Shown here: positions 2,045 to 59,725 of the stretch, one piece after another
Position numbering within the stretch: the first letter of the stretch is position 1
Layout: every line of letters begins with the position of its first letter
Source: Octopus vulgaris
Lineage: Eukaryota
NCBI GenBank assembly: GCA_951406725.2
Contig: OX597833.1
Span: forward strand, 62,806,001-62,870,000
DNA: 64,000 nt
Direction of reading: 5' to 3'
Program-made: the position numbers and the translations under genes
The notes under the pieces: generated by a model
The model's input: only the letters and a program-made list of their open reading frames with translations
Told to the model about the DNA's origin: nothing
Database searches by the model: none

Positions 2045-2370
2045 CCCGGGACTTATTCTTTGTAAGCCCAGTACTTATTCTATCGGTCTCTTTTGCCGAA
2101 CTGCTAAGTGACGGGGACATAAACACACCAGCATCGGTTGTCAAGCAATGCTAGGAGGACAAACACAGACACACAAACATACACACACATATATACATAC
2201 ATATATACGACGGGCTTCTTTCAGTTTCCGTCTACCAAATCCACTGACAAGGCTTTGGTCGGCCCGAGGCTATAGTAGAAGACACTTGCTCAAGGTGCCA
2301 CACAGTGGGACTGAACCCGGAACCATGTGGTTGGTAAACAAGCTACTTACCACACAGCCACTCCTGCGCC
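2045..2370 (-). mobile_element. SINE family A (tRNA-derived head, CORE-like segment), 3'-truncated
   Basis: Near-identical reverse complement of 7873-8268. Confidence 0.9.
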
Positions 2371-7130: not shown

Positions 7131-7133
7131 AAA

Positions 7134-7385
7134 GCGGCGAGCTGGCAGAACCGTTAGCACGCCGGGCGAAATGCGTAGCCATATTTCGCCTGCCGTTACG
7201 TTCTGAGTTCAAATTCCGCCGAGGTCGACTTTGCCTCTCATCCTTTCGGGGTCGATTAAATAAGTACCAGTTACGTACTGGGGTCGATGTAATCGACTTA
7301 ATCCGTTTGTCTGTCCTTGTTTGTCCTCTCTGTGTTTAGCCCCTTGTGGGTAGTAAAGAAATAGGTATTTCGTCTGTCTTTACGT
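7134..7385 (+). mobile_element. SINE family B (tRNA-like head, conserved central domain, Tx1-like tail) plus the start of a second unit
   Basis: B-box gagttcaaattcc; central gcct.tcatcctttcggggtcgat..aataagtaccag; tail agccccttgtgggtagtaaagaaa. Confidence 0.9.
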
Positions 7386-9017: not shown

Positions 9018-9036
9018 CACACACACACATATATAT

Positions 9037-9186
9037 ATTTCTTTATTGCCTACAGTGGGCTAAATATAGAAGGGATAAGCAAGGAGAAACAAAGGGATTA
9101 AATCGATTACATCAACCCCAGTGCGTAACTGGTACTAATTTAATCGGTCCCGAAAGGATGAAAGGCAAAGTCGACCTCGGCGGAAC
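9037..9186 (-). mobile_element. SINE family B, 5'-truncated, between (TA)n tracts
   Basis: Reverse complement of family B body and tail. Confidence 0.8.
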
Positions 9187-9555
9187 GTATATATATATAT
9201 ATATATACATACACACACACACAAATATTCATTCATACATATATATACACACATACGTATATAGAAGAACAGAGTGAGAGTAAGACACACACACACACAC
9301 ACACACATACATATACGTGTGCGCGCGTGTAAGACCCTTCTTTCCACGGTACTTAAAGCTGTTTTTAATTGTTTCGTAGCTTAACGTTGTTTACCTTCTG
9401 GTAGAAAATCAAGAAGTCGGTTTTATAAAGTCTTTGGTCAATGAGTGAAATTGGTGTCGGCCAACAGAGGGCGTGGTGAGATTAACAGGAGGTCAATTGT
9501 TTAGTAATCCAAAAGGTTTAGCGGAAAGATAGAGAGAACGACAGAAAGAACCATT

Positions 9556-10030: not shown

Positions 10031-10107
10031 CACACATATACACACACACACACTCAGACGCGTGTGTATACGATGTATATATGTGTGTATACGATGTATA
10101 TATATAA

Positions 10108-10336
10108 GGCGGCGAGCTGGTAGAAACGTTAGCACGCCGGGCGAAATTCGTAGCCGTATTTCGTCTGTCGTTACGTTCCGAGTTCAAATTCCGCCGAGGT
10201 CGACTTTGCCTTTCATCCATTCGGGGTCGATAAATTAAGTACCAGTTACGCACTGGGGTCGATGTAGTCGACTTAATCCCTTTGTCTGTCCTTGTTTGTC
10301 CCCTCTGTGTTTAGCCCCTTGTGGGTAGTAAAGAAA
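10108..10336 (+). mobile_element. SINE family B monomer inserted in (TA)n
   Basis: Full head, body and tail; tatata on both sides. Confidence 0.92.
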
Positions 10337-10469
10337 TATATATATGTATGTGTGTGCGTATTTGTGTGAGTGTGTGTATGTGCGTGTGTATATATATATA
10401 TACACACACACACAAACACAGACACACACACACACTCTTTCACATTCGCTTGCTTTCTCCCCCAAAATT

Positions 10470-12960: not shown

Positions 12961-13207
12961 TTATGGCTTTTTGAAGACAAAATGAAAAACCTTCTCTGTA
13001 CAGCTCTACACTGAATACTTAAAAAACACCAAATAGTTCAAAGTTACCACCACCGTCACTATCATCCTCACCATCACCACACCGCCACAAAGACTACCAC
13101 GTCGACCATGATGACCACGACCACTACAGCAACCATCACCACTACCATCCTCGCCGACCCCTCCTGAACGAATAAATATCTATTGAATATCTTTCCCTCC
13201 CGTTTCA

Positions 13208-13620
13208 TATTTCTTTACTACCCACAAGGGGCTACACACAGAGGGGACAAACAAGGACAGACAAACGGATTAAGTCGATTATATCGATCCCAATGCGTAA
13301 CTGGTACTTATTTAATTGACCCCGAAAGGTTGAAAGGCAAAATCGACCTCGGCGGAATTTGAACTCAGAACGTAGCGGCAGACGAAAGACCTATTTCTTT
13401 ACTACCCACAAGGAGCTAAACACAGAGGGGACAAACAAGGACAGACAAATGGATTAAGTCGATTATATCGATCCCAATGCGTAACTGGTACTTATTTAAT
13501 CGACCCCGAAAGGATGAAAGGCAAAGTCGACCTCGGCGGAATTTGAACTCAGAACGTAACGGCAGACGAAATACCGCTATGCATTTCGCCCATGCGTGCT
13601 AACGATTCTCCAAGCTCGCC
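13208..13620 (-). mobile_element. SINE family B dimer (long + short unit)
   Basis: Same unit junction as in the 16473 array. Confidence 0.9.
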
Positions 13621-13912
13621 TCCAGTTTCTACACTCGACCCACACACATACGTGCACACAAATATATCTATGCATACACGTACACATACACATATATATG
13701 CACATACACACGTACACACACAAACACACATGCACGTACATACAAACACACTCATGTAAATATGCACACGCATACACTTACACACAAATGTATACGCTAC
13801 TCAGAATATTATTCTTTGTGAAACAAGAATAGAAATTATGTGAACGAGTTACAAGGGGGAGAATCATTGGTTGTACATGTTCGCTATGTAGGCGTGTATG
13901 ATTGCACGCATC

Positions 13913-15417: not shown

Positions 15418-15678
15418 CGGGGACGTAAACACACGGTTGTCAAGCAATGCTAGGGGGACAAATACAGACACACAAACAAACACACATACATATATATATA
15501 TATATACATATATACGATAAGCTTCTTTCAGTTTCCGTCTACCAAATCCACTCACAAGGCATTGGTCGGCCCAGGGCTATAGCAGAAGACACTTGCCCAA
15601 GATGCCACGCAGTGGGACTGAACCCGGAACCATGTGGTTGGTTAGCAAGCTACTTACCACACAGCCACTCCTGCGCCT
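15418..15678 (-). mobile_element. SINE family A, 3'-truncated
   Basis: Matches family A. Confidence 0.9.
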
Positions 15679-16378
15679 GTTCCATTGTACGATGGGCACA
15701 AAGCCTGGAATTTTGTGGGAGGGGGTTAAGTTAATTACATCAACCCCAGGACCCAGCTTATTTCATCGACCCCCGAATGTAGATATGTATTCAAATACAT
15801 AAATACATATCTACAAATACGTATAGGTACATATGTGTATGTGTATGCGCAGATATGAACATTTGCAAGTAAACCAGTCTTTTTACGTTCAACGTCCCAC
15901 GACATATTTGTTCCGCATCGAGTGACACACACTCCCCTCGCACTCTCATTTCTCACTCTAGCCCGCTTGGCACTCAATTACTGATTGTTAGGCCGTCAGT
16001 AAATCCATTACCAACGACCGCTATCGTTCACTAATTGCTATAAAAAAAAACCCAACAATAATAAAACAAACAATAAAATATTCGACAATACAATAAAATG
16101 GTAATGCCATTGTTTGACATTAATCTTTAGCGCAGATCAAAACGATATCTGGTTTAAGAGGCTGGTGTCAGCATATTTCTAAAGTTAACCATCGGACTTC
16201 AGTCGAGGAACAATTTCACATTTAGATTGCTACCAACCGGAGGGGGAGGGAGGCGGGGGTAATACCATCACAAAACACACCCAGCTATTAGAGTCGTCGC
16301 CACCGCCGTCGTCGTCATAACAGGCAGTATTGTTGTTACTGCTGTTGTTGTTCTTATTTGTTGTCGTTATTATTATTA

Positions 16379-16468
<90 letters not shown>

Positions 16469-16472
16469 ATTG

Positions 16473-17885
16473 AGGCAGCTAGCTGGCAAGAATCGTTAGC
16501 ACGCCGGGCGAAATGCTTAGCGGTATTTCGTCTGCCGTTACGTTCTGAGTTCAAATTCCGCCGAGGTCGATTTTGCCTTTCATCCCTTCGGGGTCAATTA
16601 AATAAGTACCAGTTACGCACTGGGGTCGATATAATCGACTTAATCCGTTTGTCTGTCCTTATTTGTCCTCTCTGTGTTTAGCCCCTTGTGGGTAGTAAAG
16701 AAATAGGTATTTCGTCTGCCGTTATGTTCTGAGTTCAAGTTCCGCCGAGGTCGACTTTGCCTTCCATCCTTTTGGGGTCGACTAAATAAGTACCAGTTAC
16801 ACACTGGGGTCAATGTAATCGACTGTTTGTCTGTCCTTGTTTGTCCCCTCTATGTTCAGCCCTTGTAAGCAATAAAGAAATAAGAATCGTTAGCACGCCG
16901 GGCAAAATGCTTAGCAGAATTTTGTACGTCTTTGCGTTCTGAGTTCAAATTCCGCCGAGGTCGACTTTGCCTTTCATCCTTTCGGGGTCGATTAAATAAG
17001 TACCAGTTACGCACTGGTGTCGATATAATCGACTTAATCCGCTTGTCTGTCTTTGTTTGTCCTCTCTGTGTTTAGCCCCTTGTGGGTAATAAAGAAACAG
17101 GTATTTCGTCTGCCGTTATTCTGAGTTCAAATTCTGCCGAGGTCGACTTTGCCTTTCATCCATTCGGATCGATTAAATAAGTACCAGTTACGCACCGGGG
17201 TCGAATAATCGACTTGATCCCTTTGTCTATCCTTGTTTGTCCCCTCTATGTTCAGCCCTTGTGGGCTATAAAGAAATAAGAAACGTTAGCACGCCGGGCG
17301 AAATGCTTAGCGGTATTTCCTCTGCCGCTACGTTCTGAGTTCAAATTCCGCCGCGTTCGACTTTGCCTTTCATCCTTTTGGGGTCGATTAAATAAGTACC
17401 AGTTACGCACTGGGGTCGATATAATCGACTTAATCCGCTTGTCTGTCTTTGTTTGTCCTCTCTGTGTTTAGCCCCGTGTGAGTAATAAAGAAACAGGTAT
17501 TTTGTCTGCCGTTATTCTGAGTTCAAATTCTGCCGAGTTCGACTTTGCCTTTCATCCTTTTGGGGTCGATAAATTAAGTACCAGTTACGCACTGGGGTCA
17601 ATGTAATCGACTTGATTCCTTTGTCTGTCCTTGTTTGTCACCTCTATGTTCAGCCCCCTGTGGGCAATAAAGAAATAAGAATCGTTAGCACGCCGGGCGA
17701 AATGCTTAGCGGTATTTCGTCTGCCGTTACGTTCTGAGTTCAAATTCCACCGAGTTCGACTTTGCCTTTCATCCTTTCAGGGTCGATAAATTCAGTACCG
17801 GTTGCATACTGGTGTCGATCTAATCGACTGGCTCCCTCCCACAAAATTTCTGGCCTTGTGCCTAGAGTAGAAAAGAATATTATTA
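16473..17885 (+). mobile_element. Tandem array of 7 SINE family B units, alternating long and short; last unit has an alternative tail ending in (ATT)n
   Basis: Unit starts at about 16473, 16706, 16883, 17100, 17280, 17496, 17679. Confidence 0.92.
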
Positions 17886-20484: not shown

Positions 20485-20517
20485 TTACTACTACTACTGT
20501 TGTTGTTGTTGCTATTA

Positions 20518-21197
20518 AGACGGCGAGTTGGCAGCATCGTTAGCTCGCTGGGCAAAATGATTAGTGGCATGTTCTCTGTCTTTATGCTCTGAGTTCAAAT
20601 TCCGCAGAGGTCGACTTAGCTTTTTATCCTTTCGGGCCCGATGAAATAAGTACCAGTTGAGTACCAGTTGGGATCGATGTTATCGACTAGCTCCCTCCCA
20701 AAAAAACTTCAGGCTTTGTACCTATAGTCCTTGTTTATCCCTTCTATGTTTAGCCCCTTGTGGGCAGTAAAGAAATAAGAAACGTTAGCATGCCGGGCGA
20801 AATGCCGTATTTCGTCTGCCGCTACGTTCTCAGTTCAAATTCCGCCGAGGTCGACTTTGCCTTTCATCCTTTCGGCGTCAATAAATTAAGTGCCAGTTAC
20901 GCACTGGGATCGATATAATTGACTTAATCCATTTGTCTCTCCTTCTTTGTCCTCTTTGTGTTTAGCCCCTTGTGGGTAGTAAAGAGATGGGTATTTCGTC
21001 TGCCTTTACGTTCTGAGTTCAAATTCCGCCGAGGTCGACTTTGCCTTTCATCCTTTTGGGGTCGGTAAATTGAGAACAAGTTGCGTACTGGGGTCGATCT
21101 AACTGACTGGTTCTTTCGGGGTCAATAAAGTAAAAGCCAGTTGAATATTGGGGGTCGATATAATCGAATGTCCTCCCCTAAAGTTTCTATCCTTGTA
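20518..21197 (+). mobile_element. Degenerate SINE family B array (3-4 units)
   Basis: Same units and junctions as the 16473 array. Confidence 0.85.
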
Positions 21198-21431
21198 CTT
21201 CTTACTCTTTAGCTGTTTAAGTTATATGACTGTGGCAATGCTGGAGCACCGCCTTCAGTCGAGCAAATCGACCCCAGGACTTATTCTTTGTAAGCCTTAG
21301 TACTTATTCTATCGGTCTCCTTTGCCGAACCGTTAAGTTACGGGGACGTAAACACACCAGCATCGGTTGTCAAGCGATGTTGGGGCGACAAACACAGACA
21401 CACAAACACATACACACACATACATACATAT

Positions 21432-28426: not shown

Positions 28427-28692
<266 letters not shown>

Positions 28693-28911
28693 GACTGACG
28701 GATGTGATGTCGTTTCGGCTCCGAAGGTAATCATTTATTTTGACTATTTAAAAGTGTATATTGACAAACATTTTTTGCTTAAAAGTTGTACAACAACATC
28801 CACTGTAAACCTTTGATAAATATCGACACAAAATTTTGCCCCTTGTGGGCAAAATTTAAAAGAAAAATTCTCATAGCCTTCGTGGTTTCATTTAGCCATT
28901 TTATTTCCAAA

Positions 28912-30675
28912 ATGGCCACTGACCACCACGAGGCTGAGTTGCAAGTCAAGCGTGACGGAGAAACAGAAAAACAGGATGCTCTGTTAGCATACGCCGAACC
29001 TGACAACTCCACCACCACCAACAGCAACAAATACAAAACAAAGGTCGCAAGGCCAAGCACCGTCAACACCATCAGTGAGTCCACCACCACCACCAACACC
29101 ATGGCAGAATCTGCTACTAAAACTGCTATCCCTACTAAAGATATTGCCACCAATAACAACACCAACATCACCATCACCGCCACCAAAGACCGTGCCGTCA
29201 ATGCTACAAATACTACCAACACCACAGCCGTCACCAAGAACGACAATAACAACAACAACAACGACGACAACAACAACTCCCTTCAACCACTGCTCACTCC
29301 ATCACCAACAAGTGAAAAAATAACGACGACAAGCAAACGAAATGTCGAATTTTGCCCTAGTGCAGGACTAAAGTACGCAGGCAATTTTCCACCCCTTCCT
29401 ACTTGCACGATCGAACCTAACACACCAATTTTACAAACTGCAGCCAACAACAACATCACCACAAGCAACAACAATAACAAAACAACAACAAATTTCGCTG
29501 AGGCGATTAAAGAAAAAAAAACAACAATATACTTTACGGCTCAACAATTACAGGACACGAACATCAAAATAACAGAATCAGAAGGTATCGTAAAAATTAA
29601 CATACCAGAAGATATTTTGGAAAATGAAAAAAGACGAACAATCATTTATAAAATAGTTAACAAAAAAACAAAAATCCCAGAGAAGGCCAACACAGGCAAA
29701 ATAGAGAAGTGCCTGAAACCCATCTGGGATCACAAAGAATATGTAACCTGGTGGAACAAATTTGCCCACATACAAGTCGTTTTCTACACCGAAGAGTTAG
29801 CTAGACATTTCTCAACGCTAACTCTTCACTCAGATGAACTCCAACTTACACCAAGCTATCGGGGACAGAAAGTGACTAAGATCACTCTAAACAATGTCCC
29901 CAAAATAGCCAATAGTCTATGGCTTGTAAAGGCTTTATGCATAAAAATGGCGAATTATACTATTTTGGAAACCACAGTCACAGAGCATAAAAACTGGGTG
30001 GGAAAGAAAATAGAATTTCTTCTACATATACATCATGAAGATATAAAAAAAATACCCACCCAGATATGTGTATCAGACGACCACAAGTTATATGTGGTCG
30101 TCGATGGCAGAAGACCACGTTGCTACATATGCGGCAGTGAGCAACATCTCAAAAAAGACTGCAAATCTGCCGCAAGAAAACAACAGCAGCCGGAAACAAA
30201 AACAAATAAACAAGGTCTACTACCCACACCACTTTTTGCAGGAACAAACCTCACCAAACAAACAACCACACCAACTGCAGCACCAAGAACAGAAGCAGCA
30301 TCACCAACAACAACAACCAAGAATATACCAACTCCCAAACCAAGGACATCTGCCAAAAAGACACCCAGCATAAATGAAGAAACAATTACAACTCCAAATC
30401 CCCACAAAATTGAGACCCTAAACAACACAACAATACCCACAATCACTCAAACACAAAATACCCAAACCCCACATCCAAAACCGCATACACCACAACCAAA
30501 CGCTCACCAACCAACACCAACAACAAAACCAACACAGTCGACAATAGACCCCAATACTTTCCCTCTTCCAGACTCCGATTCGTCTGATCTGTCATTAGAC
30601 GAAGAAGACACGGAAGATTGGCAAATAGCCACAGGGGGGAGAAGAAAAAGGGGAAAAAAAGAAAAGAAAAAATAA
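28912..30675 (+). CDS. Tx1-type ORF1 (gag-like nucleic-acid-binding protein), 587 aa from the first ATG
   Basis: AAAATGG start (MATDHH...), CCHC knuckle CYICGSEQHLKKDC, T/N/P-rich low-complexity flanks. Confidence 0.85.
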   Translation: MATDHHEAELQVKRDGETEKQDALLAYAEPDNSTTTNSNKYKTKVARPSTVNTISESTTTTNTMAESATKTAIPTKDIATNNNTNITITATKDRAVNATNTTNTTAVTKNDNNNNNNDDNNNSLQPLLTPSPTSEKITTTSKRNVEFCPSAGLKYAGNFPPLPTCTIEPNTPILQTAANNNITTSNNNNKTTTNFAEAIKEKKTTIYFTAQQLQDTNIKITESEGIVKINIPEDILENEKRRTIIYKIVNKKTKIPEKANTGKIEKCLKPIWDHKEYVTWWNKFAHIQVVFYTEELARHFSTLTLHSDELQLTPSYRGQKVTKITLNNVPKIANSLWLVKALCIKMANYTILETTVTEHKNWVGKKIEFLLHIHHEDIKKIPTQICVSDDHKLYVVVDGRRPRCYICGSEQHLKKDCKSAARKQQQPETKTNKQGLLPTPLFAGTNLTKQTTTPTAAPRTEAASPTTTTKNIPTPKPRTSAKKTPSINEETITTPNPHKIETLNNTTIPTITQTQNTQTPHPKPHTPQPNAHQPTPTTKPTQSTIDPNTFPLPDSDSSDLSLDEEDTEDWQIATGGRRKRGKKEKKK

Positions 30676-31052
30676 CAAACAAAGCGGGAAGATACACCAC
30701 TCCCGAAACAAAAACATCCACAGAAAACACACACATCAACACAAACACACCATCATCAAACCCCCCAAAAATGTTGACAGCCATAAACACAAACAACCAC
30801 GACCTAATGGAACACATTAGGTCAAACACTAACATTACTGAAAACGACATAAAAACAAGTAACCACCCACACACAACACCACCACAACACATTAAAATAA
30901 TACACGTGACACAGAACACATACAGCACCCTGAAATCTCTTTACCCTGATGCAGTAGGGAGATTTCAAAAGTACTCATCAAAAAAACTGTATAAAAGCCT
31001 CATAGAAGAAGACCGTGAGGTGAAAGACAAAGAACTTTCGAAAAACAAGTAA
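30618..31052 (+). CDS. Probable C-terminal continuation of ORF1 in the -1 frame
   Basis: Same A/C-rich composition as ORF1, overlaps the ORF1 end at an A-rich run, stops 42 nt before the ORF2 ATG. Confidence 0.55.
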   Translation: MANSHRGEKKKGKKRKEKITNKAGRYTTPETKTSTENTHINTNTPSSNPPKMLTAINTNNHDLMEHIRSNTNITENDIKTSNHPHTTPPQHIKIIHVTQNTYSTLKSLYPDAVGRFQKYSSKKLYKSLIEEDREVKDKELSKNK

Positions 31053-31094
31053 CCTTTTCTCTCTCCTTTTCCTTTTTTGCACTTTTATCGGAAC

Positions 31095-34000
31095 ATGCTC
31101 AGAATAGGTAGTATAAATGTACGTGGCTTGGGGTCGCCTTGGAAACAAGGCTACCTGTTAAATGACATCAAGTCACTAAATCTGAATATCATAGCCATCA
31201 GTGAGACCAGACTCCACAGCTTGCGGGCACTCCAGCACATTTTCGGTACACATTTCAACATTTATTTTTCTCCGTGTCTACCGAGAATGGGCGGAGGTGG
31301 CACCGCGGTGCTTATCCGGAAGAGTCTGGATCTCAAAGTAAGAGCAAATTTCCTAGACCCGGAGGGTAGGCTGGTCGTTTTGGATGTCGATGGCAGCAAT
31401 GAGTGTGCTTTTCGACTGATAGCAGTTTATGCTCCGTCCTTAACAGGCCGACCAGATTTCTTTCGACGTCTAGAGTCTTTCATGGGAACGTCTCGTCCTT
31501 TACTTTTAGTGGGGGATTGGAATGCCACCCTGGACACGCATCTAGACTACGTGGGCAGAGATAGCAATAGAAGGGGATGCAAATGCCTCAAAGACCTGCT
31601 CAGACGTTTCCAACTGTCTGACAGGTACCGACTGGACCACCCGAATGTGCCAATGTGGACATGGAGTAACCGCATCGGGTCGTCCAGATCATACTTAGAT
31701 AGAGTATTCTGTAGGACAATAGATAAAAATAGTGTAGGTTGTCCACAATTTCATATAGTCAGTTACACAGACCACAAGTTTGTGACTTGTACACTTGACT
31801 TAGATAAGACACATAGGCAGGGTCCTGGTTACTGGAAACTGAACGCGTCTTTTACAGCACGACAGGTTTACAGGGACCGGATCAGCACATTAGTTAAGAG
31901 AGCTTTGACGGGTACCATCATCAACAACAGATGGTGGTATGCCCTAAAAAAAGCGATTAAAGCAGAATCAGTCAGATACAGTAGAGCCCTAGCATTAGAC
32001 CGAAATAGAGTAGAGGGAGAATTAGTTAAGGTTTTAGAAGAGGCACTTAGAACTGGCATCGCGTCCAACGTACTGGCGGCGAGATTGGCCCTCGACCAAC
32101 ACCTCAACGCCAAACACGAGGGATGCGTTGTCAGAGCTAGGATGCGTGCTCTGAGGAACGAAGGAGTTGGAGCCGCCCAAGAGGCCCGAGTGGTGGAGAC
32201 GCAACGAGGCAACAGAGCCACCATCAAGTCTCTTATAGATGAACAGGGGCGCGAATTACTCGAGCCCAAAAGGATGTGTGGGGTTTTTCAACAACACTTC
32301 ACCCAACTGTTTGGGACAAGTGGTGAGTCAGAAAGCAGAGTGGACTTTAGTGCCTACCTGCATGCCTTGCCACGACTCTCAGCAAGGGAGGTGGAGTCTT
32401 GTGAAAAGCCTATCACAGCTGCGGACGTACAGGATGCGATGGTAGGCTGCGCGAGAGACAAGTCACCAGGCTTGGATGGTCTGCCCTACGAATTTTATTT
32501 TCATATGCCAGACTTGTTTGGAGGCGTCTTGGCAGCTGTCTACTGCAACTGGCAGCAGAACGGGAGTATTCCTGCTTTTGTAAAGCGAGGAGCAGTGGCA
32601 CTGATCAAGAAAGACCCAAACAAGGGGGACGTCATAGATAATTTCAGGCCCATCACTCTGCTCAACGCAGATTTGAAAATTTTGGCCAAGGTGTTAGCCG
32701 AGAGGTTGGCGCTTGTCATCAAGAAACTAATCGACAAGGCGCAAACATGCGCCGTGCCGGGTAGAAGTATTCATGACAACCTCCATCTGATGCGCTACAT
32801 CATAGACAGGGTAGTTAAAAATCCTGGCATGGGTGGGGCGCTGATCAATTTGGATCAATCAAAAGCCTTCGATAGGGTAGACCATCACTACTTGGAGGCT
32901 GTCCTCAAAGCGGCTGGTTTCGGTCCAGTTTTCCGCGGTTGGATCGCTGCCTTATACAGCGGCATCCGCTCAGTAGTTCGCGTAAATGGTCATCTATCCA
33001 GACCTTTTAACATCATGCGTTCGGTTCGTCAGGGATGCCCCCTCTCATCGCTGCTGTATGTACTGACTCTTGAGCCACTACTGCGGAAACTGGCGACGCT
33101 GAGGGGCATCCCACGAGAGCTGGGATGCGGGAGGAGCGTGTCTGCATACGCGGATGACGTCACCGTCATAGTGTCGAGCTACGAGCACATCGAGCTGGTC
33201 GGCGAGACACTGAAAGAATACGAAGCGGTAACGGGAGCAAAAATTAACCGGGAAAAGTCAGTGGGCTTGCGGCTCGGCACCTGGAGAAGCAAGCCCATGC
33301 CGTCCAACAGCGTCTCCATCGTGGGACGCTGGACGGACGGACCGGTTAAATTGCTCGGGGTCTGGTTCGGTCCGGACCTCCAAATGGAGAAGAACTGGGG
33401 CGAGATAACGACTAGGGTGGCTACTCTCACCCAGAAATGGACTGAGAGAAAGCTATCCCTAAAAGGTCGGGCGGAGGTGGCGAACGCGTACATCGCATCC
33501 GTCATCGAGTACCGTCTGACCGTCGTGCCTTGTCCCGACCCTACCATCACCAAACTGGAACGCATACTCTTCCGCTTCTTGTGGAAGGGAAACGTTCCGA
33601 TGGTTAGGCGATCCATTTGCTGCCAACACCCGCTAAATGGAGGGCTGGGCATGCCGTGGTTGATGATGCGCAGACATGCGCTGAGACTGCGACATCTCCG
33701 GCGCTTCATAGACAACGGTGAACAGGGGTGGTCGCCTTTTGTGCGGCGCGCTTTCCCGCAGCTCGTCTCCTTGGACGAACTACAGTCATGGATCAAGCAG
33801 AGACCGAGGCTAGGCGAATGGCACCGTGAGTGTCGCGTTGCTCTCAAGCAACTCTGCCGTCCGGGATCGAACTTGTGCGACTCCATCACAACAAAGGCAT
33901 TCTATAGAGGATTAGTGGAGGGGAGGTGCGACGACGAACTCGGGCAGAGTCTGGGCGTCGACGAGGAACACCTGACCCGCCTGTTCAGGACAACTTTCGG

Positions 34001-34532
34001 GCCGGGACCTATGAACAATCACCAAAGATCCCTGGCCTGGCAGTGCTATCGAGAAGCATTACCTGTTCGGGATAAGCTCTACAGACACGGTTCCAGACAC
34101 ACTGGACCGACTTGCCCGAGATGCGGTCAGAGCGACGAAACCGTTCTGCACGCACTCGTGCAATGTCCAACCATTTCCGACCTGTGGGCTTATGCCGAAC
34201 GGCTGCTGTCACGTGTGGGACGAATCCGCCTATCGGCCGAGTCTATCGTGAGAATTGCTCCGCCCCCTTCCCTCAACCGGGAAGGCAAGGCAGTTTTCAT
34301 CGTACTGGTGGCCATGGTGAAAGAATGTGTGTGGTGGACTCGAGCGAAAGGATTAGAGACAAACACTTACCTCTCTGGCCATTCGCTCATCAACTTTTTC
34401 AAGTACCACTTGAAAAGGAAGGTGAGAATGGAGAGGGAAGTTTTGTCTCGCGAAAGATTCAATAAAAGATGGGTGAATGTTGCAAAGATGGTGCGTGCTA
34501 GTAACGAAACCATTTTGAGCATGATCCTGTAG
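31095..34532 (+). CDS. ORF2: AP-endonuclease + reverse transcriptase + C-terminal zinc finger, 1145 aa from ATG
   Basis: APE motifs SINVRG, SETR, VYAP, GDWN, YLDRV, TDH; RT motifs KSPGLDG, FRPITLLN.D.KILAK, LDQSKAFDRV, RQGCPLS, YADD; CPRC...H...C; uninterrupted. Confidence 0.96.
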   Translation: MLRIGSINVRGLGSPWKQGYLLNDIKSLNLNIIAISETRLHSLRALQHIFGTHFNIYFSPCLPRMGGGGTAVLIRKSLDLKVRANFLDPEGRLVVLDVDGSNECAFRLIAVYAPSLTGRPDFFRRLESFMGTSRPLLLVGDWNATLDTHLDYVGRDSNRRGCKCLKDLLRRFQLSDRYRLDHPNVPMWTWSNRIGSSRSYLDRVFCRTIDKNSVGCPQFHIVSYTDHKFVTCTLDLDKTHRQGPGYWKLNASFTARQVYRDRISTLVKRALTGTIINNRWWYALKKAIKAESVRYSRALALDRNRVEGELVKVLEEALRTGIASNVLAARLALDQHLNAKHEGCVVRARMRALRNEGVGAAQEARVVETQRGNRATIKSLIDEQGRELLEPKRMCGVFQQHFTQLFGTSGESESRVDFSAYLHALPRLSAREVESCEKPITAADVQDAMVGCARDKSPGLDGLPYEFYFHMPDLFGGVLAAVYCNWQQNGSIPAFVKRGAVALIKKDPNKGDVIDNFRPITLLNADLKILAKVLAERLALVIKKLIDKAQTCAVPGRSIHDNLHLMRYIIDRVVKNPGMGGALINLDQSKAFDRVDHHYLEAVLKAAGFGPVFRGWIAALYSGIRSVVRVNGHLSRPFNIMRSVRQGCPLSSLLYVLTLEPLLRKLATLRGIPRELGCGRSVSAYADDVTVIVSSYEHIELVGETLKEYEAVTGAKINREKSVGLRLGTWRSKPMPSNSVSIVGRWTDGPVKLLGVWFGPDLQMEKNWGEITTRVATLTQKWTERKLSLKGRAEVANAYIASVIEYRLTVVPCPDPTITKLERILFRFLWKGNVPMVRRSICCQHPLNGGLGMPWLMMRRHALRLRHLRRFIDNGEQGWSPFVRRAFPQLVSLDELQSWIKQRPRLGEWHRECRVALKQLCRPGSNLCDSITTKAFYRGLVEGRCDDELGQSLGVDEEHLTRLFRTTFGPGPMNNHQRSLAWQCYREALPVRDKLYRHGSRHTGPTCPRCGQSDETVLHALVQCPTISDLWAYAERLLSRVGRIRLSAESIVRIAPPPSLNREGKAVFIVLVAMVKECVWWTRAKGLETNTYLSGHSLINFFKYHLKRKVRMEREVLSRERFNKRWVNVAKMVRASNETILSMIL

Positions 34533-34845
34533 ATCGTAAAAAAGAAAGAAAGGAAAAAAAAAAGAGAGCATTTTTGACCTCATGTGTTTTATTTCCTCCC
34601 TGACTGGGGTTCCCGTGGTCTTTTCTGTAGGCTTTTCTTCCCACGGATGAACCCAATCTTGTTATATCAATGTTTACACCATTATTTCTGTGATACACGA
34701 TTTTCTTTTTTTCCTTTTTTTCCTCCTCTCGATCCCTTTTGATCGCAATCTTACATTTTTATTTTTTTCCACCCTCGAAAAGAAAAGCTCTGCATTTGTA
34801 ATTGTCTCCTCTGTATTCAGCCCTGTGTGGCTAATAAAAGAAAGT

Positions 34846-35065
<220 letters not shown>

Positions 35066-35310: not shown

Positions 35311-37612
35311 TATATACATACATACATATATACATACATACATATATACATACATATGTACATACAATTCCATTTCTGACTATATGGATGCACATATATA
35401 TGTGTGTGTGTGTGTGTATGTGTGTGTGTGTATACATATATATAGACCCAACCATATATACATACATACATGCATACATGCATTCACACATACATACACA
35501 CAAACAAACAAAGACGCACGCGCGCGCGCACATTTCTTTCGCTCACACATGCACACACACACACACACACATACACACACACACACACGCATACCATCAC
35601 AATCAAATACACGTGCATATATACGCACACACTCATGTCTTCTATTATAAATAACATCCACTTCTGCCACGGTCGAAATCTGCCAGGAATTTGTGGGGGA
35701 CGGGAAAAGTCTATTATATCGCCCCCCCCCACCAGTACATGACTGTTACTTTGCCTTGTCAGTCAATCTCCGAGAAGATGGAAGGCAAAGGGCTAACCTC
35801 GGCGAGATTTGAACCTACAATATAAAGAGTTGGAACAAACATCACAAAGTATTTTGTCGGACCCTTTAACGATTTTGCCAAACCAGCGCTCAAATAAAAA
35901 AAGACCCAAGCAACAAAAAACAACAACAATGTGTAGGAAAAATGTATAAGTTTATAGTTGTGTGTGTGTATATATATATGTATACACATATATACATATA
36001 TACACAATATATACATATATATATATATGTATATGCACACACGTATATGTATACACACTTACATGTGCATATATGTACTTTTTTATACATACATATATAT
36101 ATATACATGTGTGTGTGTGTGTGTGCATATACATGTGCACAAATATATATACGATTATCTGTGTGTATTTGCATTTATATATAATGACATAATATATATA
36201 TATATATACATATACATACGGTATATAACCTGTTGTATTTGTTCTTCTGCTACTTATCCATTTTTTTGTGGAATTATTTCCTTTATAGAATCTTTTCCAT
36301 GTTTTCTATTTTCTTTGTTCATTCTTTCTAGAGTTTCTCTATTTTCTCTGCTGAAATGGTAATTCCTCATGTGTAAAGACTATATTTCATCTCAACAGAG
36401 CTCTTAACTGTCCAGATATTCCATTTGATACATACAACTGTATACTTATGCAAACGCTCGTATATAAACACACACACACACACACACACACATACACACA
36501 CATATGCACTCGCTGAGTTACATACTCTTTTGCACACACATGCACACACGTGCTCACTCATTCACATACACACTTGTACACACAATCACTTATTCAAACA
36601 CACACACACACGTATGCGGGCGCACATATATACTTTATTGTTCAGTTTCGTATTTTTTTCACCAACTGCAACTATTACAGGATATTCAACGAACATAACC
36701 TCAAAGTTAGTTATAGTTGTGCAGAAAATTTGGCCTCTTTAATGTCTCCAGAAAGCAACAATACGAGCAAGAACGAAGAAAACACTGCGTATAAATGCAA
36801 TTAAAACTGCTACGTTTACTGACTAACCTGTTCAGGGCAATGGTCTTTGAGCAAGTTATCCTCTGTACTGGGAAAACGGGAAAGAGTGAGAGAGAGACAG
36901 AGAGGGAGAGACAGAGAGGGAGAGAAAGGGAGAAAGGGAAAGAAGAAGAGGGAGAAAGAGAGATGGGGAGAGAGAGGGAGAGAGAGAAAGAGAGCAAATG
37001 ACTTATAGAGAATAGGATTGCAGACACCAAGCCAGGGAGTACATCTTTTCAAGTTAAGACTTCGGTAGTGCCATATTGCGATGAAGGTATGCAGTTTGTT
37101 ATTTCAAAGTAGCAGAGGAATTTTTAGCATCATATATATATATATATACATACATAGAAATATACAGTGGTGTGTATGTGTGTGTGTGTGTGTATATAGA
37201 CACACACATATGTACACTATCCGGACTATAAATTGAAATCTCAATCGCTAGAGCAACACCCTAACTCCTGACCCATGCACTCATTCTCACACACATGCAC
37301 GCACACGTGCACCCCACCACACATTTGTCGCTTCTACTGGAGACATGCTAGAACAACTGCTGTGCTGATAACGTCAATTGAGGCAGAAACATGTGTTTTC
37401 AGTTGTAGTTCTGTTTCCATAAATCCTTTTCCCCCATTTGTACTGCAAAGTTTTTGGTGCACTTTCTGTGGAAGTATGTCTTTGATCTTAATACGATTCC
37501 TTGTTCTAAATGTTCGACCTATTCCACTAATAACATCTCTAAGAATTCTATAAGTCGTATAATTTTTTTTTATTCCAACGTCTGCTAATGATGATCCAGT
37601 CACCTAATAGCC

Positions 37613-44099: not shown

Positions 44100-44104
<5 letters not shown>

Positions 44105-44512
44105 CTTTACTACACAGAAGGGGCTAAACATAGAGGGGACAGACAAGGACAGACAAACGGATTAAGTCGATTATATCGACTCCAGTGCGTAACTGGTACT
44201 TATTTAATCGACCCCGAAAGGATGAAAGGCAAAGTCGACCTCGGCGAAATTTGAACTCAGAACGTAACGGCAAATGAAACACCTATTTCTTTATTACTCA
44301 CAAGGGGCTAAACACAGAGAGGACAAACAAGGACAGACATAGGTATTAAGTCGATTATATCGACCCCAGTGCGTAACTTAACTGGTACTTATTTAATCGA
44401 CCCCGAAAGGATGAAAGGCAAAGTCGACCTCGGCGTAATTTGAACTCATCTAACGTAACGGCAGACGAAATACCGCTAAGCATTTCGCCCGGCGCGCTAA
44501 CGATTCTGCTAA
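44100..44512 (-). mobile_element. SINE family B dimer, tail abutting (TA)n
   Basis: Matches family B long + short arrangement. Confidence 0.9.
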
Positions 44513-47259: not shown

Positions 47260-47717
47260 GGATCTTTTCCGTTTGAACGGCAGTTTTTAACATAACTTCT
47301 AGGTACCTAAAAAATTTTAAACTTCCTATACTGGTAGAAAGTGTTTATAAAACATCTTTTTCTCTTGGCTTTATTGAGAAAATTCTATAGTTTGTAAGAT
47401 ATTTGTTTTTTTTTCTTCAATTTCTGCAACTTCTACCAACCACTGACGTCTATTGAGGTGAAAACCATTCTGTGCCGTATGAATATGTCCCTTGTTTAAG
47501 AAACAGATTGGGTTTATTTACATTAGTGAAGAAAAAAAGATGCCCTTCCCCCACCCCTAACCCTAACTAACCCTAACCCTAACCCTAAAGATAACCCTAA
47601 CTAACCCTAACCCTTAAAGAGATTGAAATGCTGTAGATCGATTCTAGGGTCATCATTATGGGTGACAATTTCATATGACACCGCTAGAAAAAACTGCCGT
47701 TGAAACCGAAAAGATCC
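47260..47717 (+). mobile_element. Non-autonomous TIR element (~29-bp TIRs) with internal (CCCTAA)n-like repeats, copy 1
   Basis: GGATCTTTTCCGTTTGAACGGCAGTTTTT ... AAAAACTGCCGTTGAAACCGAAAAGATCC. Confidence 0.88.
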
Positions 47718-50617: not shown

Positions 50618-51172
50618 TCTCTATTGCTGCTGCTGCTGCTACTACTACTACTACGACTACTACTACGACTACTGCTGCTGCTGCTGCTACTACTACTGTT
50701 GCTGCTGCTGCTGCTGCAATAAGGCCTACGCCTACAATAATTGGTGTCTTTGCAAAAACCATTGCGTACGTGATCCATTGTTGCGGGCGAATTTATGCCT
50801 GGCTGCTCAGCACGGTCGTGAAATCTAAGCTTACTCGGGTTACAAGCCTACTGTCCTGGATTCAGGCCTCACCCTGGCTACCCGGTTTTGCCTTTTGTCC
50901 TTCTGTGGGGGTCGATGAGATGAAACCCCTGTCAAATGATTTATCTTTTCCTCCCATTGTTTGATAAAAAGAATCTGTAAGTATTCTTGAGGTTATATTA
51001 AGTATCAGGATTGTATGTGTGTGTGTGCGTGTGTGCGTGTATATGTCTATGTATGTGTGTGTGTGCGTGTATGCATGTGTGTATGTGTGTATGTGTGTGT
51101 GTGTGTGCGTGTGTATGTGTGTGTATGTATATATGCATACGTACAGATACACACGCATATATATATATATAT

Positions 51173-51345
51173 CTTTTCTACTCTAGGCACAAGGCCTGAA
51201 ATTTTCTTGGGGTGGGGGAAGTCGATTAGATCGGCCCCAGTACGCATCTGGTACTTAATTTATCGACCCCGAAAAGCAAAGTCGACCGCGGCGGAATTTG
51301 AACTCAGAACGTAAGGACAGACCGCTAAGCTTTTCTGCCAGCTCG
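51173..51345 (-). mobile_element. SINE family B with the alternative tail
   Basis: Tail matches 17820-17880. Confidence 0.8.
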
Positions 51346-51364
51346 ACTTATTTATGTTTATACA

Positions 51365-51894: not shown

Positions 51895-52610
<716 letters not shown>

Positions 52611-56222: not shown

Positions 56223-56602
56223 GGGGGCGCAATGGTGGTTAGGGCAGCGGACTCGCGGTCATAGGATCGCGGTTTCGATTCCCAGACCGGGCGTTGTGAG
56301 TGTTTATTGAGCGAAAACACCTAAAGTTCCACGAGGCTCCGGCAGGGGATGGTGGTGATCCCTGCTGTACTCTTTCACCACAACTTTCTCTCACTCTTAC
56401 TTCCTGTTTCTGTTGTACCTGTATTTCAAAGGGGCCGGCCTTGTCACTCTCTGTGTCACGCTGAATATCCCCGAGAACTACGTTAAGGGTACACGTGTCT
56501 GTGGAGTGCTCAGCCACTTACACGTTAATTTCACGAGCAGGCTGTTCCGTTGATTCGGATCAACCGGAACCCTCGTCGTCGTAATCGACGGAGTGCTTCC
56601 AC
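56223..56602 (+). mobile_element. SINE head C + tail G with 11-bp target-site duplication
   Basis: agggctcacga at 56212-56222 and 56603-56613; A-box and B-box present. Confidence 0.92.
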
Positions 56603-56929
56603 AGGGCTCACGAAAAAAAGAAAAAAAGAAAAGAGGTCTTAAGAGGCACTTTATTTTCATCAACCATGAAGATAATGCCGGAATTAACTAGATTTGAACT
56701 CGGGACGTAAGAGGGAAGAACGAATAGCAAACAGGGAAGATATTTTTCCCTGCGAAACCAAAACTCGTTTTGTGCGAATGTTTGAACAACATTTGAACAA
56801 AGAGTTCTTAGTGTCACTGTTTTCAGGAACGTGCAGGAACGATTGTGTGTGTGTGCGTGTACGTGTGTGTGTGTGTGTGTACGTGTGTGTGAAAGAGAGA
56901 GAGAGAGAGAGAGTGTGTGTGTGTGTGTG

Positions 56930-57309: not shown

Positions 57310-57344
57310 GATAGATAGATATGTTTCTTTATTAGCCACACAGT
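57310..57344 (-). mobile_element. Minute 3'-end remnant of the Tx1 family joined to (TATC)n
   Basis: Minus strand ctgtgtggctaataaagaaacatatctatctatc versus ctgtgtggctaataaaagaaagttatctatctatc at 34823-34857. Confidence 0.7.
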
Positions 57345-57538
57345 GCGCGTGTACGATAGAACAAATTAGAAGAGAGAGTGTGTGTGTGTGTGTGTGAGAG
57401 GTTTAAAAAAAAAAAAAAAAGGAAGGGTGTGTAGTTTGTGAGTGTGCGTGTGTCTGTGTGTGTGTGAAAGAGTGAGAGAGGGGGTGTGTAAGAAAAAAGG
57501 TGTGTGAGAGTCTTTGTGTAAAAGTGTATATGTGTGAA

Positions 57539-57584
<46 letters not shown>

Positions 57585-59505: not shown

Positions 59506-59509
59506 TGTT

Positions 59510-59725
59510 AAGGTGATCTAGCAGAATCGTTACTACGCTGGACCTCGTGCTCGACGGCATTTCTTCCAGCTTGACGTTCCGAGTTCAAATTCCGCCGAGA
59601 CCGAACTTTGCCTTTCATCCTTTTGGGACTCATTGAAATATGTGCCTGTTAAACATTGGGGGGCTGATGTAACCGACGTACCCACCCTTCAAATTTGCAG
59701 GCCTTGTGCCAAAATAAGAAAAGGA
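59510..59725 (+). mobile_element. Old SINE family B copy with the alternative tail
   Basis: gagttcaaattccgccgag and gcctttcatcc; tail ggccttgtgcc. Confidence 0.75.

What the first reader, a model, noticed from the sequence alone, without database searches (positions are those of the whole stretch)
34790..34845. Tx1 3' tail is shared with SINE family B, including a terminal stem-loop
Seen: LINE ttgtctcctctgtattcagccctgtgtggctaataaaagaaa (34802-34843) versus SINE ttgtcccctctatgttcagcccttgtgggctataaagaaa (17237-17276). Both can form an AGCC(C)/(G)GGCT hairpin before the A-rich end. Established: stringent LINEs recognise a 3' stem-loop that partner SINEs copy, whereas mammalian L1 needs only poly(A). 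Inference: an L1/Tx1-clade element of stringent type with its parasite SINE in the same window. SINE B tails here mostly run into (TA)n (9037, 10336, 44100), so the true partner may be a sister Tx1 lineage with TA specificity.
Basis: partly seen in the sequence, partly recalled or inferred. Interest (0 to 1): 0.75.

Follow-up and report, generated by a model that had tools for sequence, protein, structure and literature searches.

The report
Octopus LINE and SINE share tails
A full-length L1/Tx1-type jumping gene in what is likely octopus DNA ends in the same 42-base tail and small predicted hairpin as an abundant short parasitic repeat (SINE), so this branch of L1-like elements likely picks its RNA by a tail structure and not by poly(A) as human L1 does, and sister families likely copy the SINE.

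Summary
Observation confirmed and extended. The LINE (intact 1145-aa APE-RT ORF2, (TATC)n on both sides) matches SINE B tails at 34802-34843: 71-82% identity to 14 tails, profile E=1e-6, 0 of 1000 shuffles. The tail is not private to this copy: a second TATC-flanked remnant (57322-57545) ends in it, and contigs of public runs bridge the unique UTR into it. New here: SINE B has a further tail type (T3), and models built only from 3' ends of a sister LINE lineage (41% ORF2 identity, other record) rank these T3 tails first in the window. All share a 4-bp stem with a CUNGU-type loop, with swapped pairs between types, and no poly(A). Against: the hairpin is weak, RNAalifold found no consensus on the LINE+SINE alignment, the LINE loop has one extra base, 0 of 9 terminal SINE ends lie in TATC, and non-Tx1 octopus LINEs could not be screened. 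Best reading: a likely stringent-type L1/Tx1 lineage whose sister families, not this TATC family, mobilise SINE B. Ten literature searches showed no animal L1/Tx1 pair with a shared tail; Repbase was not searchable. Function is inferred, not assayed.

The parts
28427..28691 (+). (TATC)n array on the 5' side of the LINE (likely target)
28692..34845 (+). L1/Tx1-type LINE, apparently full length; exact 5' end uncertain (28692-28868 may be the end of a preceding element)
28831..28857 (+). perfect 11-bp hairpin with the SINE tail's 5-nt loop and inner stem, followed by an A-rich run, 55 nt upstream of the ORF1 ATG
   Evidence: E=0.02; 1 of 1000 shuffles; z=-3.2
28912..30675 (+). ORF1, 587 aa from the first ATG, CCHC knuckle and RRM-like region
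   Evidence: (zf-CCHC E=0.0024, below cut-off)
30588..31052 (+). 154-aa open frame between ORF1 and ORF2; possibly the ORF1 end after a frameshift (untested)
31095..34532 (+). ORF2, 1145 aa, intact: APE endonuclease, reverse transcriptase, zf-RVT
34533..34845 (+). 3' UTR, ends without poly(A)
34802..34843 (+). tail shared with SINE B types 1 and 2
34814..34836 (+). predicted stem-loop: upper stem 34819-34822 / 34829-34832, 6-nt loop 34823-34828, lower stem 34814-34817 / 34833-34836
34846..35065 (+). (TATC)n array on the 3' side
57322..57545 (-). second, decayed 5'-truncated copy of a related 3' UTR ending in the LINE-type tail; TATC on both sides; two of four stem pairs broken
   Evidence: (global score 102 vs shuffles max 89, 0 of 300)
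16472..17885 (+). SINE B head-to-tail array: tRNA-like head, alternating type-1 and type-2 tails (396-bp unit), last unit with a T3 tail; TTA/ATT repeats on both sides
10107..10338 (+). full-length single SINE B, type-1 tail, TA runs on both sides
9036..9187 (-). 5'-truncated SINE B, type-2 tail, TA runs on both sides
44100..44510 (-). SINE B dimer ending in (TA)n
13201..13625 (-). SINE B dimer, no simple repeat behind the tail
7132..7382 (+). SINE B with type-1 tail and start of a second monomer
20516..21200 (+). SINE B cluster in which a type-2 tail (20735-20775) is joined directly behind a T3 tail (20691-20727): a tail switch
51172..51350 (-). SINE B with T3 tail, followed by (TA)n; best window hit of the sister-LINE tail models
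   Evidence: E=1e-5; E=3e-6
59509..59725 (+). diverged SINE B with T3 tail
15690..15780 (-). decayed SINE B fragment with T3 tail
35677..35890 (-). decayed SINE B with a T3-like tail start

Best explanation
The LINE and SINE B share a homologous 3' tail, and this L1/Tx1-type lineage likely recognises a small tail stem-loop and not poly(A), with sister families of this LINE, more than this TATC-flanked family itself, being the likely mobilisers of SINE B. Shown: the shared sequence; its presence in further copies; the absence of poly(A); a conserved hairpin core at the 3' end of a sister LINE lineage; a second SINE tail type (T3) matching that sister lineage. Inferred: ORF2p binds the hairpin (in L2 LINEs the region between endonuclease and RT binds the stem and reads the loop), nicks a simple-repeat target and primes reverse transcription about 12 nt downstream; SINE B, a likely Pol III transcript, took such tails from the lineage at least twice (T3 from the sister branch, types 1/2 from the branch of the window LINE); the family-specific endonuclease would explain TATC flanks for this LINE and TA or TTA flanks for the SINEs.
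For: Tail match above chance with and without the A-rich end. Second TATC-flanked remnant with the same end. Contigs of four public runs from three organism labels cover UTR and tail; one 223-nt contig with 13 mismatches and 9 gaps spans 34730-34832; a variant at 34792 lies 40-42 letters from the contig end in two runs; one contig each in two runs matches ORF2 to 34448 and again from 34801; no loose-end row near 34800 among the 24 shown of 711. 62 of 67 loci of a related lineage (ORF2 40.5-41.7% identical; 8 UTR clusters) carry the hairpin core before AATAAA and no poly(A); 11 of 12 core positions are invariant in 10 aligned ends, including two families with 48% ORF2 identity and no alignable UTR. 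HMM and covariance model built from those ends alone rank SINE B T3 tails as the top 5 and top 6 window hits. That lineage is sister to the window LINE's clade and includes two cuttlefish proteins (quick tree). Loop-anchored stems keep pairing through swapped pairs: 91% of 56 cells paired, 13 with both sides changed, 0 of 500 shuffles; the LINE hairpin differs from T3 copy 51193 by one swapped pair plus one loop base. In L2 LINEs the loop sets specificity (PMC4176376, passages), and the loops differ here.
Against: No assay. Hairpins are weak (z -0.8 to -1.6) and RNAalifold predicts no pair on the 16-row LINE+SINE alignment. The pair counts use a structure and rows that I chose after seeing the sequences, the rows are related, and the window LINE is not in the alignment (in one search, where it is, it breaks one pair and 4 of 500 shuffles reach the score). 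The sister-LINE models do not find the window LINE's own tail or the 5' hairpin, and the only type-1/2 hit has E=29; the type-1/2 profile finds nothing in the sister loci (best E=18): the link between the two tail groups rests on a 13-14 nt core. The remnant at 57k breaks two of four pairs. At 80% likeness some contigs laid on the tail may be SINEs, and the tool skipped 34833-34872, so flanks of other copies were not seen. No TA- or TTA-targeting sister family was found. Other octopus LINE clades were not screened.
Confidence: 0.65

Rival explanations
1. This very TATC-flanked LINE family mobilises SINE B types 1/2; the flank difference is a small-sample effect, or TA runs are made by slippage on the SINE's own terminal TA.
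For: It is the LINE with the longest tail match (42 nt), has an intact ORF2 and many copies. SINE ends carry TA themselves.
Against: 0 of 9 terminal SINE ends lie in TATC, while 2 of 2 LINE-type tails do; several SINEs have TA or TTA runs on the 5' side too; tail identity LINE-SINE (71-82%) is below the SINE-SINE mean (86%); loop lengths differ.
Confidence: 0.12
2. The tail moved the other way: an ancestor of this LINE family captured a SINE B end by template switching, and the SINE's real driver is another clade (RTE, CR1, Dong-R4).
For: SINE B is abundant and switches tails (20691-20775); a SINE-like hairpin also sits upstream of ORF1, so capture of such pieces may happen; the 17 nt upstream of the hairpin in types 1/2 are not seen in the sister LINEs; RTE, CR1 and Dong-R4 are active in O. 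vulgaris (PMC13282606).
Against: A like hairpin ends 62 of 67 sister-lineage loci from another record, which makes it old in the LINE lineage; similarity stops about 55 nt from the end and no SINE body follows into the UTR.
Confidence: 0.13
3. The shared end is a 3'-processing or stability signal (hairpin plus AATAAA/AGTAAA) kept by descent, and the RT is of relaxed type.
For: AATAAA or AGTAAA lies at every intact end; the hairpin is thermodynamically weak.
Against: No poly(A) follows any LINE or terminal SINE end examined; copies stop at a fixed place a few bases after the signal, which fits priming at a defined end; loop sequence is conserved across stems.
Confidence: 0.08
4. Chance likeness of low-complexity T/G/C-rich and A-rich sequence, or a SINE piece fused to this one copy.
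For: The region is short and pyrimidine-rich; the window is full of simple repeats.
Against: 0 of 1000 dinucleotide shuffles, also without the A-rich end; bridging contigs and a second copy.
Confidence: 0.02

Closest known systems
Maize LINE1-1_ZM with ZmSINE2/ZmSINE3, and Chlamydomonas L1-1_CR with SINEX-3_CR (Ohshima 2012, PMC3472496, first third of the text read; Ohshima 2013, PMC3747384, passages and section 1.4)
   Same: L1-clade LINE sharing a short 3' end (about 50 and 80 nt) with SINEs; in the monocot lineage a hairpin with conserved loop and compensated stem; conserved end in an otherwise diverged UTR.
   Different: Those are green plants and algae, and the algal pair ends in poly(A); only 3 of 58 surveyed SINEs had L1 tails. 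Here the host is an animal, the element is Tx1-like, there is no poly(A), and the SINE carries two tail types pointing to two branches of one lineage.
Crocodilian SINEU and Tx1-Mar (Kojima 2015, PMC4494074, main text read)
   Same: SINEs ascribed to Tx1 machinery; tandem insertions around a duplicated target; other crocodilian Tx1 families prefer (TTCC)n/(TTTC)n.
   Different: That link rests on shared targets; no LINE with a matching 3' end was found and SINEU ends in poly(A). Here the link is tail sequence and the targets differ.
Kibi and Koshi, Tx1-clade elements of fish in (TC)n and (TTC)n (as described in PMC4494074)
   Same: Two-ORF APE-type element with a microsatellite on both sides.
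   Different: Target here is (TATC)n (2 of 2 copies in the window only); kinship to Kibi/Koshi not tested.
Stringent L2 LINEs ZfL2-1, ZfL2-2, UnaL2 (Hayashi 2014, PMC4176376, abstract and passages)
   Same: Works-like model: short 3' stem-loop near the end, loop as specificity element, partner SINEs.
   Different: Other clade; requirement shown by assay there, untested here.
Mollusc tRNA SINEs with conserved domains and their LINE partners (PMC11481361, PMC4824008, PMC4758252, passages)
   Same: Mosaic tails, several partners per SINE superfamily, tandem SINE arrays.
   Different: Partners reported are CR1, CR1-Zenon, L2 and Nimb; 'Tx1' does not occur in PMC11481361.

Membership tests
L1 clade in the wide sense (L1/Tx1) | ORF2 with N-terminal APE endonuclease, RT and C-terminal zinc motif, closer to L1 than to other clades | tested here: met
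   Pfam Exo_endo_phos, RVT_1, zf-RVT; best solved relative human L1 ORF2p E=3e-61 over residues 16-871, R2 proteins E=3e-20 (the PDB holds few clades)
Tx1 clade | ORF1 of RRM/CCHC type, not Transposase_22 | tested here: inconclusive
   zf-CCHC E=0.0024 below cut-off, no Transposase_22; Atlas look-alikes CCHC/ZCCHC3-type 0.88-0.92; PMC5203782 calls such ORF1 consistent with Tx1
Tx1 clade | RT phylogeny groups with named Tx1 elements | not testable with these tools
   No named Tx1 reference among the hits; tree holds unnamed relatives only
Tx1 clade | Target preference | tested here: inconclusive
   2 of 2 LINE-type ends have TATC on both sides; TATC/GATA arrays cover 2.0% of the window; flanks of other copies not visible
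Stringent-type LINE/SINE pair | Shared 3'-terminal sequence above chance | tested here: met
Stringent-type LINE/SINE pair | Tail belongs to the LINE family, not to one copy | tested here: met
   second remnant; bridging contigs; no full family consensus available
Stringent-type LINE/SINE pair | Conserved stem-loop with compensatory changes | tested here: inconclusive
   for; against; structure chosen post hoc
Stringent-type LINE/SINE pair | Same insertion signature in LINE and SINE (this family as partner) | tested here: not met
   0 of 9 terminal SINE ends in TATC
Stringent-type LINE/SINE pair | No LINE of another clade matches the tail better | not testable with these tools
   no genome held; no other RT remnant of this type in the window
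Stringent-type LINE/SINE pair | Tail required for retrotransposition; SINE mobilised in trans | not testable with these tools
   needs an assay
tRNA-derived SINE | tRNA-related head with A and B boxes | tested here: inconclusive
   A- and B-box-like words by eye (box consensus recalled) and an acceptor-like end stem; ARAGORN and Rfam find no tRNA
Deu/Nin SINE superfamily | Deu or Nin central domain | not tested
   resemblance recalled only; no reference sequence from a call

The most novel reading that the evidence does not exclude
A whole animal branch of L1/Tx1 retrotransposons has kept stringent recognition of a CUNGU-loop hairpin, makes head-to-tail arrays, and drove one of the large octopus SINE expansions, with the SINE hopping between sister branches by tail switching; the hairpin upstream of ORF1 is a functional second binding site or the trace of such arrays. 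This would be the first animal L1-clade system with tail-specific SINE parasites and direct support for stringent recognition as the ancestral state that mammalian L1 lost.
Probability: 0.4. Interest if true: 0.75.

Novelty: new variant of a known kind. Interest (0 to 1): 0.58.

Why it matters
SINE/LINE pairs with shared tails are common, but the L1 clade is the known exception: 3 of 58 surveyed SINEs had L1 tails, all in green plants or algae (PMC3472496, PMC3747384), and the one Tx1-SINE link that I read has no tail homology (PMC4494074). An animal case bears on whether poly(A) recognition by human L1 is a derived relaxation. It also names a candidate driver for octopus SINEs, which make up 11.6% of the O. 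vulgaris assembly beside 80 L1-Tx1 families (PMC13282606) and for which I saw no partner named. The system is testable: an intact ORF2, a 14-nt core, and natural loop and stem variants.

Tried and rejected
No own genome is held, so family consensuses and flank counts could not be made. ORF2 scans of viral contigs and the first scan of prokaryote genomes gave no locus; a SINE core pattern found nothing in either. The metagenome scan gave 80 mostly distant loci (24-36% best-segment identity, two at 44-46%) without the tail: best E=1.7 and 0.81 for the two profiles. ORF1 has no hit in the protein search. Rfam: nothing at gathering score in the window or in three sister regions, only chance-level hits for the SINE head and the LINE 5' region. 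RNAalifold on the LINE+SINE alignment: no structure. The start of one sister array lies about 100 nt from an (AT)n run, not in it, so it is no evidence of TA targeting. The O. vulgaris transcriptome file of PMC9115989 is not held as text; 4 of 8 supplements were searched without a motif hit. Four tail and core motifs are printed in no held paper. Earlier scan notes: none returned. The careful tree did not finish; only the quick tree is quoted.

Full report
Setting. The window is animal DNA rich in simple repeats. The best named relative of the long ORF is from the octopod Argonauta hians (65% identity), so an octopus genome is likely. No whole genome is held.

The LINE. ORF2 (31095-34532, 1145 aa) is intact and has APE, RT and zf-RVT domains; its closest solved relative is human L1 ORF2p (E=3e-61, against 3e-20 for R2). 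ORF1 (28912-30675) has a weak CCHC hit and look-alikes of RRM/CCHC type, which PMC5203782 (passages) calls consistent with Tx1. (TATC)n lies on both sides. 'L1/Tx1-type' is therefore supported; Tx1 membership by tree is untested. The element ends without poly(A).

The observation. The quoted strings are right. SINE tails are the four best non-self BLASTN hits of the 3' UTR. Against 14 SINE tails the LINE end is 71-82% identical; 0 of 1000 dinucleotide shuffles reach the score, with or without the A-rich end. A profile of these tails gives the LINE tail E=1e-6, directly after the 15 SINE tails; controls give 2.9 (reversed window) and 1.7 (80 distant LINE loci).

Is the tail private to this copy? 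No. A 224-nt decayed remnant at 57322-57545 (minus strand) sits between TATC runs, ends in 22 of 24 aligned letters like the LINE, and aligns to the last 246 nt of the UTR better than 300 of 300 shuffles; without its A-rich end it does not match SINE tails above chance (259 of 1000). Contigs of four public runs (4385, 3550, 1998 and 47 laid; three organism labels) cover the unique UTR and the tail; one contig with 13 mismatches and 9 gaps spans 34730-34832; one contig each in two runs matches ORF2 up to 34448 and resumes at 34801, as a sister family with another UTR but the same tail would; no loose end near 34800 is among the 24 rows shown of 711. Limits: contigs only, tables cut, 34833-34872 skipped, and SINE contigs may add depth on the tail.

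SINE B. It has a head with A/B-box-like words (box consensus recalled) and an acceptor-like stem (ARAGORN and Rfam silent). Of 23 core hits, 14 are followed by tail type 1 or 2, 4 by a different tail (T3), 5 are unclassified. Types 1 and 2 alternate in a 396-bp unit. At 20691-20775 a type-2 tail is joined behind a T3 tail. Of 9 terminal ends, 4 run into TA, 1 into ATT, 4 into no simple repeat and none into TATC. The Deu/Nin label is recalled, not tested.

Sister lineage. A 77% relative of ORF2 retrieved 67 loci, 65 of them on contigs of one record labelled as a bacterial bin that hold eukaryotic LINE arrays, host unknown. Their ORF2 is 40.5-41.7% identical to the window's, ORF1 aligns at 21% (E=6e-11), and they form 8 UTR clusters. 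62 of 67 loci carry the same hairpin core, a second variable hairpin and AATAAA, without poly(A); the five without are three loci cut before the tail and two from other records. Eleven of 12 core positions are invariant in 10 ends, also between families with 48% ORF2 identity and unalignable UTRs, and RNAalifold recovers the stem. An HMM and a covariance model made from these ends alone rank SINE B T3 tails as the top five (E 1e-5 to 0.004; next 0.52) and top six (E 3e-6 to 0.03; next 0.23) window hits. A quick tree of 39 RT regions puts this lineage, with two cuttlefish proteins, as sister to the window LINE's clade (SH-aLRT 98, 99, joint 100; careful search unfinished). So both SINE tail groups point to the same LINE lineage. 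Against: these models do not find the window LINE's own tail (the HMM's only type-1/2 hit has E=29), and the reverse search is blank (best E=18).

The hairpin. Read from the loop outwards, types 1/2 pair C-G, C-G, C-G, G-Y; T3 and the sister LINEs C-G, G-C, G-C, A-U; the window LINE C-G, C-G, G-C, A-U with a 6-nt loop. On 14 hand-picked, loop-anchored rows 91% of cells pair and 13 change on both sides (0 of 500 shuffles, above all slid controls); on 13 window rows including the LINE, 4 of 500. These counts are post hoc and the rows are related. Each hairpin alone is weak, 9 of 15 type-1/2 copies keep all four pairs in the common register, and RNAalifold finds nothing on the plain LINE+SINE alignment. 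The structure is likely, not shown.

Mechanism. By analogy with zebrafish L2 LINEs, where the stem-loop is essential and the loop sets specificity (PMC4176376, passages), ORF2p would bind the hairpin, nick its simple-repeat target and prime near the fixed A-rich end. Direction of transfer for the 17 nt upstream of the type-1/2 hairpin is open.

Literature. Ten searches showed no animal L1/Tx1-SINE pair with a shared tail and no (TATC)n-targeting Tx1. Seen: PMC3472496 (first third) and PMC3747384 (passages, section 1.4): 3 of 58 SINEs with L1 tails, maize and Chlamydomonas; PMC4494074 (main text): SINEU tied to Tx1-Mar by targets, no tail match; PMC11481361, PMC4824008, PMC4758252, PMC5786205 (passages): mollusc SINE partners from other clades; PMC13282606 (first third, two supplement rows) and PMC8967140 (passages): octopus SINE and L1-Tx1 abundance, no partner named in what I read; PMC9115989 (passages, 4 of 8 supplements searched) and PMC9004415 (passages): nothing on this. 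Repbase, Dfam, subscription papers (the 1994 octopus SINE paper, the 2004 Tx1 survey) and unseen supplements may hold a prior note.

Verdict. Real and family-wide; a likely stringent-type L1/Tx1 lineage with tail-matched SINEs, new variant of a known kind. Interest 0.58.

Noticed in passing
window 28831-28868 (+): A perfect 11-bp hairpin with the SINE tail's loop and inner stem, then an A-rich run, lies just upstream of ORF1. It may be the tail of a separate element inserted in the same TATC array, a relic of a head-to-tail array, or a second ORF2p site.
   Followed up: partly
L081-L144, L146 (handle G001, contigs other than C1): A record labelled as a bacterial bin contains many contigs made of head-to-tail arrays of intact-looking LINEs (about 6.4-6.9 kb period, 8 UTR clusters); copies are separated by 10-17 nt that are kept at array ends too, like a re-used duplicated target. 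Likely host DNA in the bin.
   Followed up: partly
L149:2521-3889: Non-coding tandem units of 286 and 388 nt, structured, each ending in a hairpin with the same 5-nt loop (one with a compensated stem), a second hairpin and an A-rich end: candidate non-autonomous passengers of the sister lineage; no Rfam hit. Further tandem units of 45, 173 and 31 nt follow.
   Followed up: partly
window 16488-17829: SINE B forms a higher-order 396-bp unit in which a long monomer with type-1 tail alternates with a short monomer with type-2 tail; the same junctions recur at 7.3, 13.4, 20.8 and 44.3 kb, so the multimer itself likely spreads.
   Followed up: partly
window 20691-20775 (+): A type-2 tail joined directly behind a T3 tail: a snapshot of tail switching.
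   Followed up: partly
window 30588-31094: A 154-aa frame follows the ORF1 stop and ends 42 nt before the ORF2 ATG; ORF1 may be frameshifted in the A-rich run near 30650-30675.
   Followed up: no
window 2120-2200 (-), 52350-52420 (+), 56500-56612 (-), 15560-15680 (-): Pieces of other interspersed repeats, apparently further SINE families; one starts directly behind the T3 tail at 15690.
   Followed up: no
window 47555-47614: About ten degenerate CCCTAA (telomere-like) units inside the window.
   Followed up: no
P0221, P0222, P0343, P0254: Proteins 76-81% identical to the ORF2 RT region occur in metagenome-derived collections on short contigs, so close sister families exist whose 3' UTRs could not be fetched.
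   Followed up: partly
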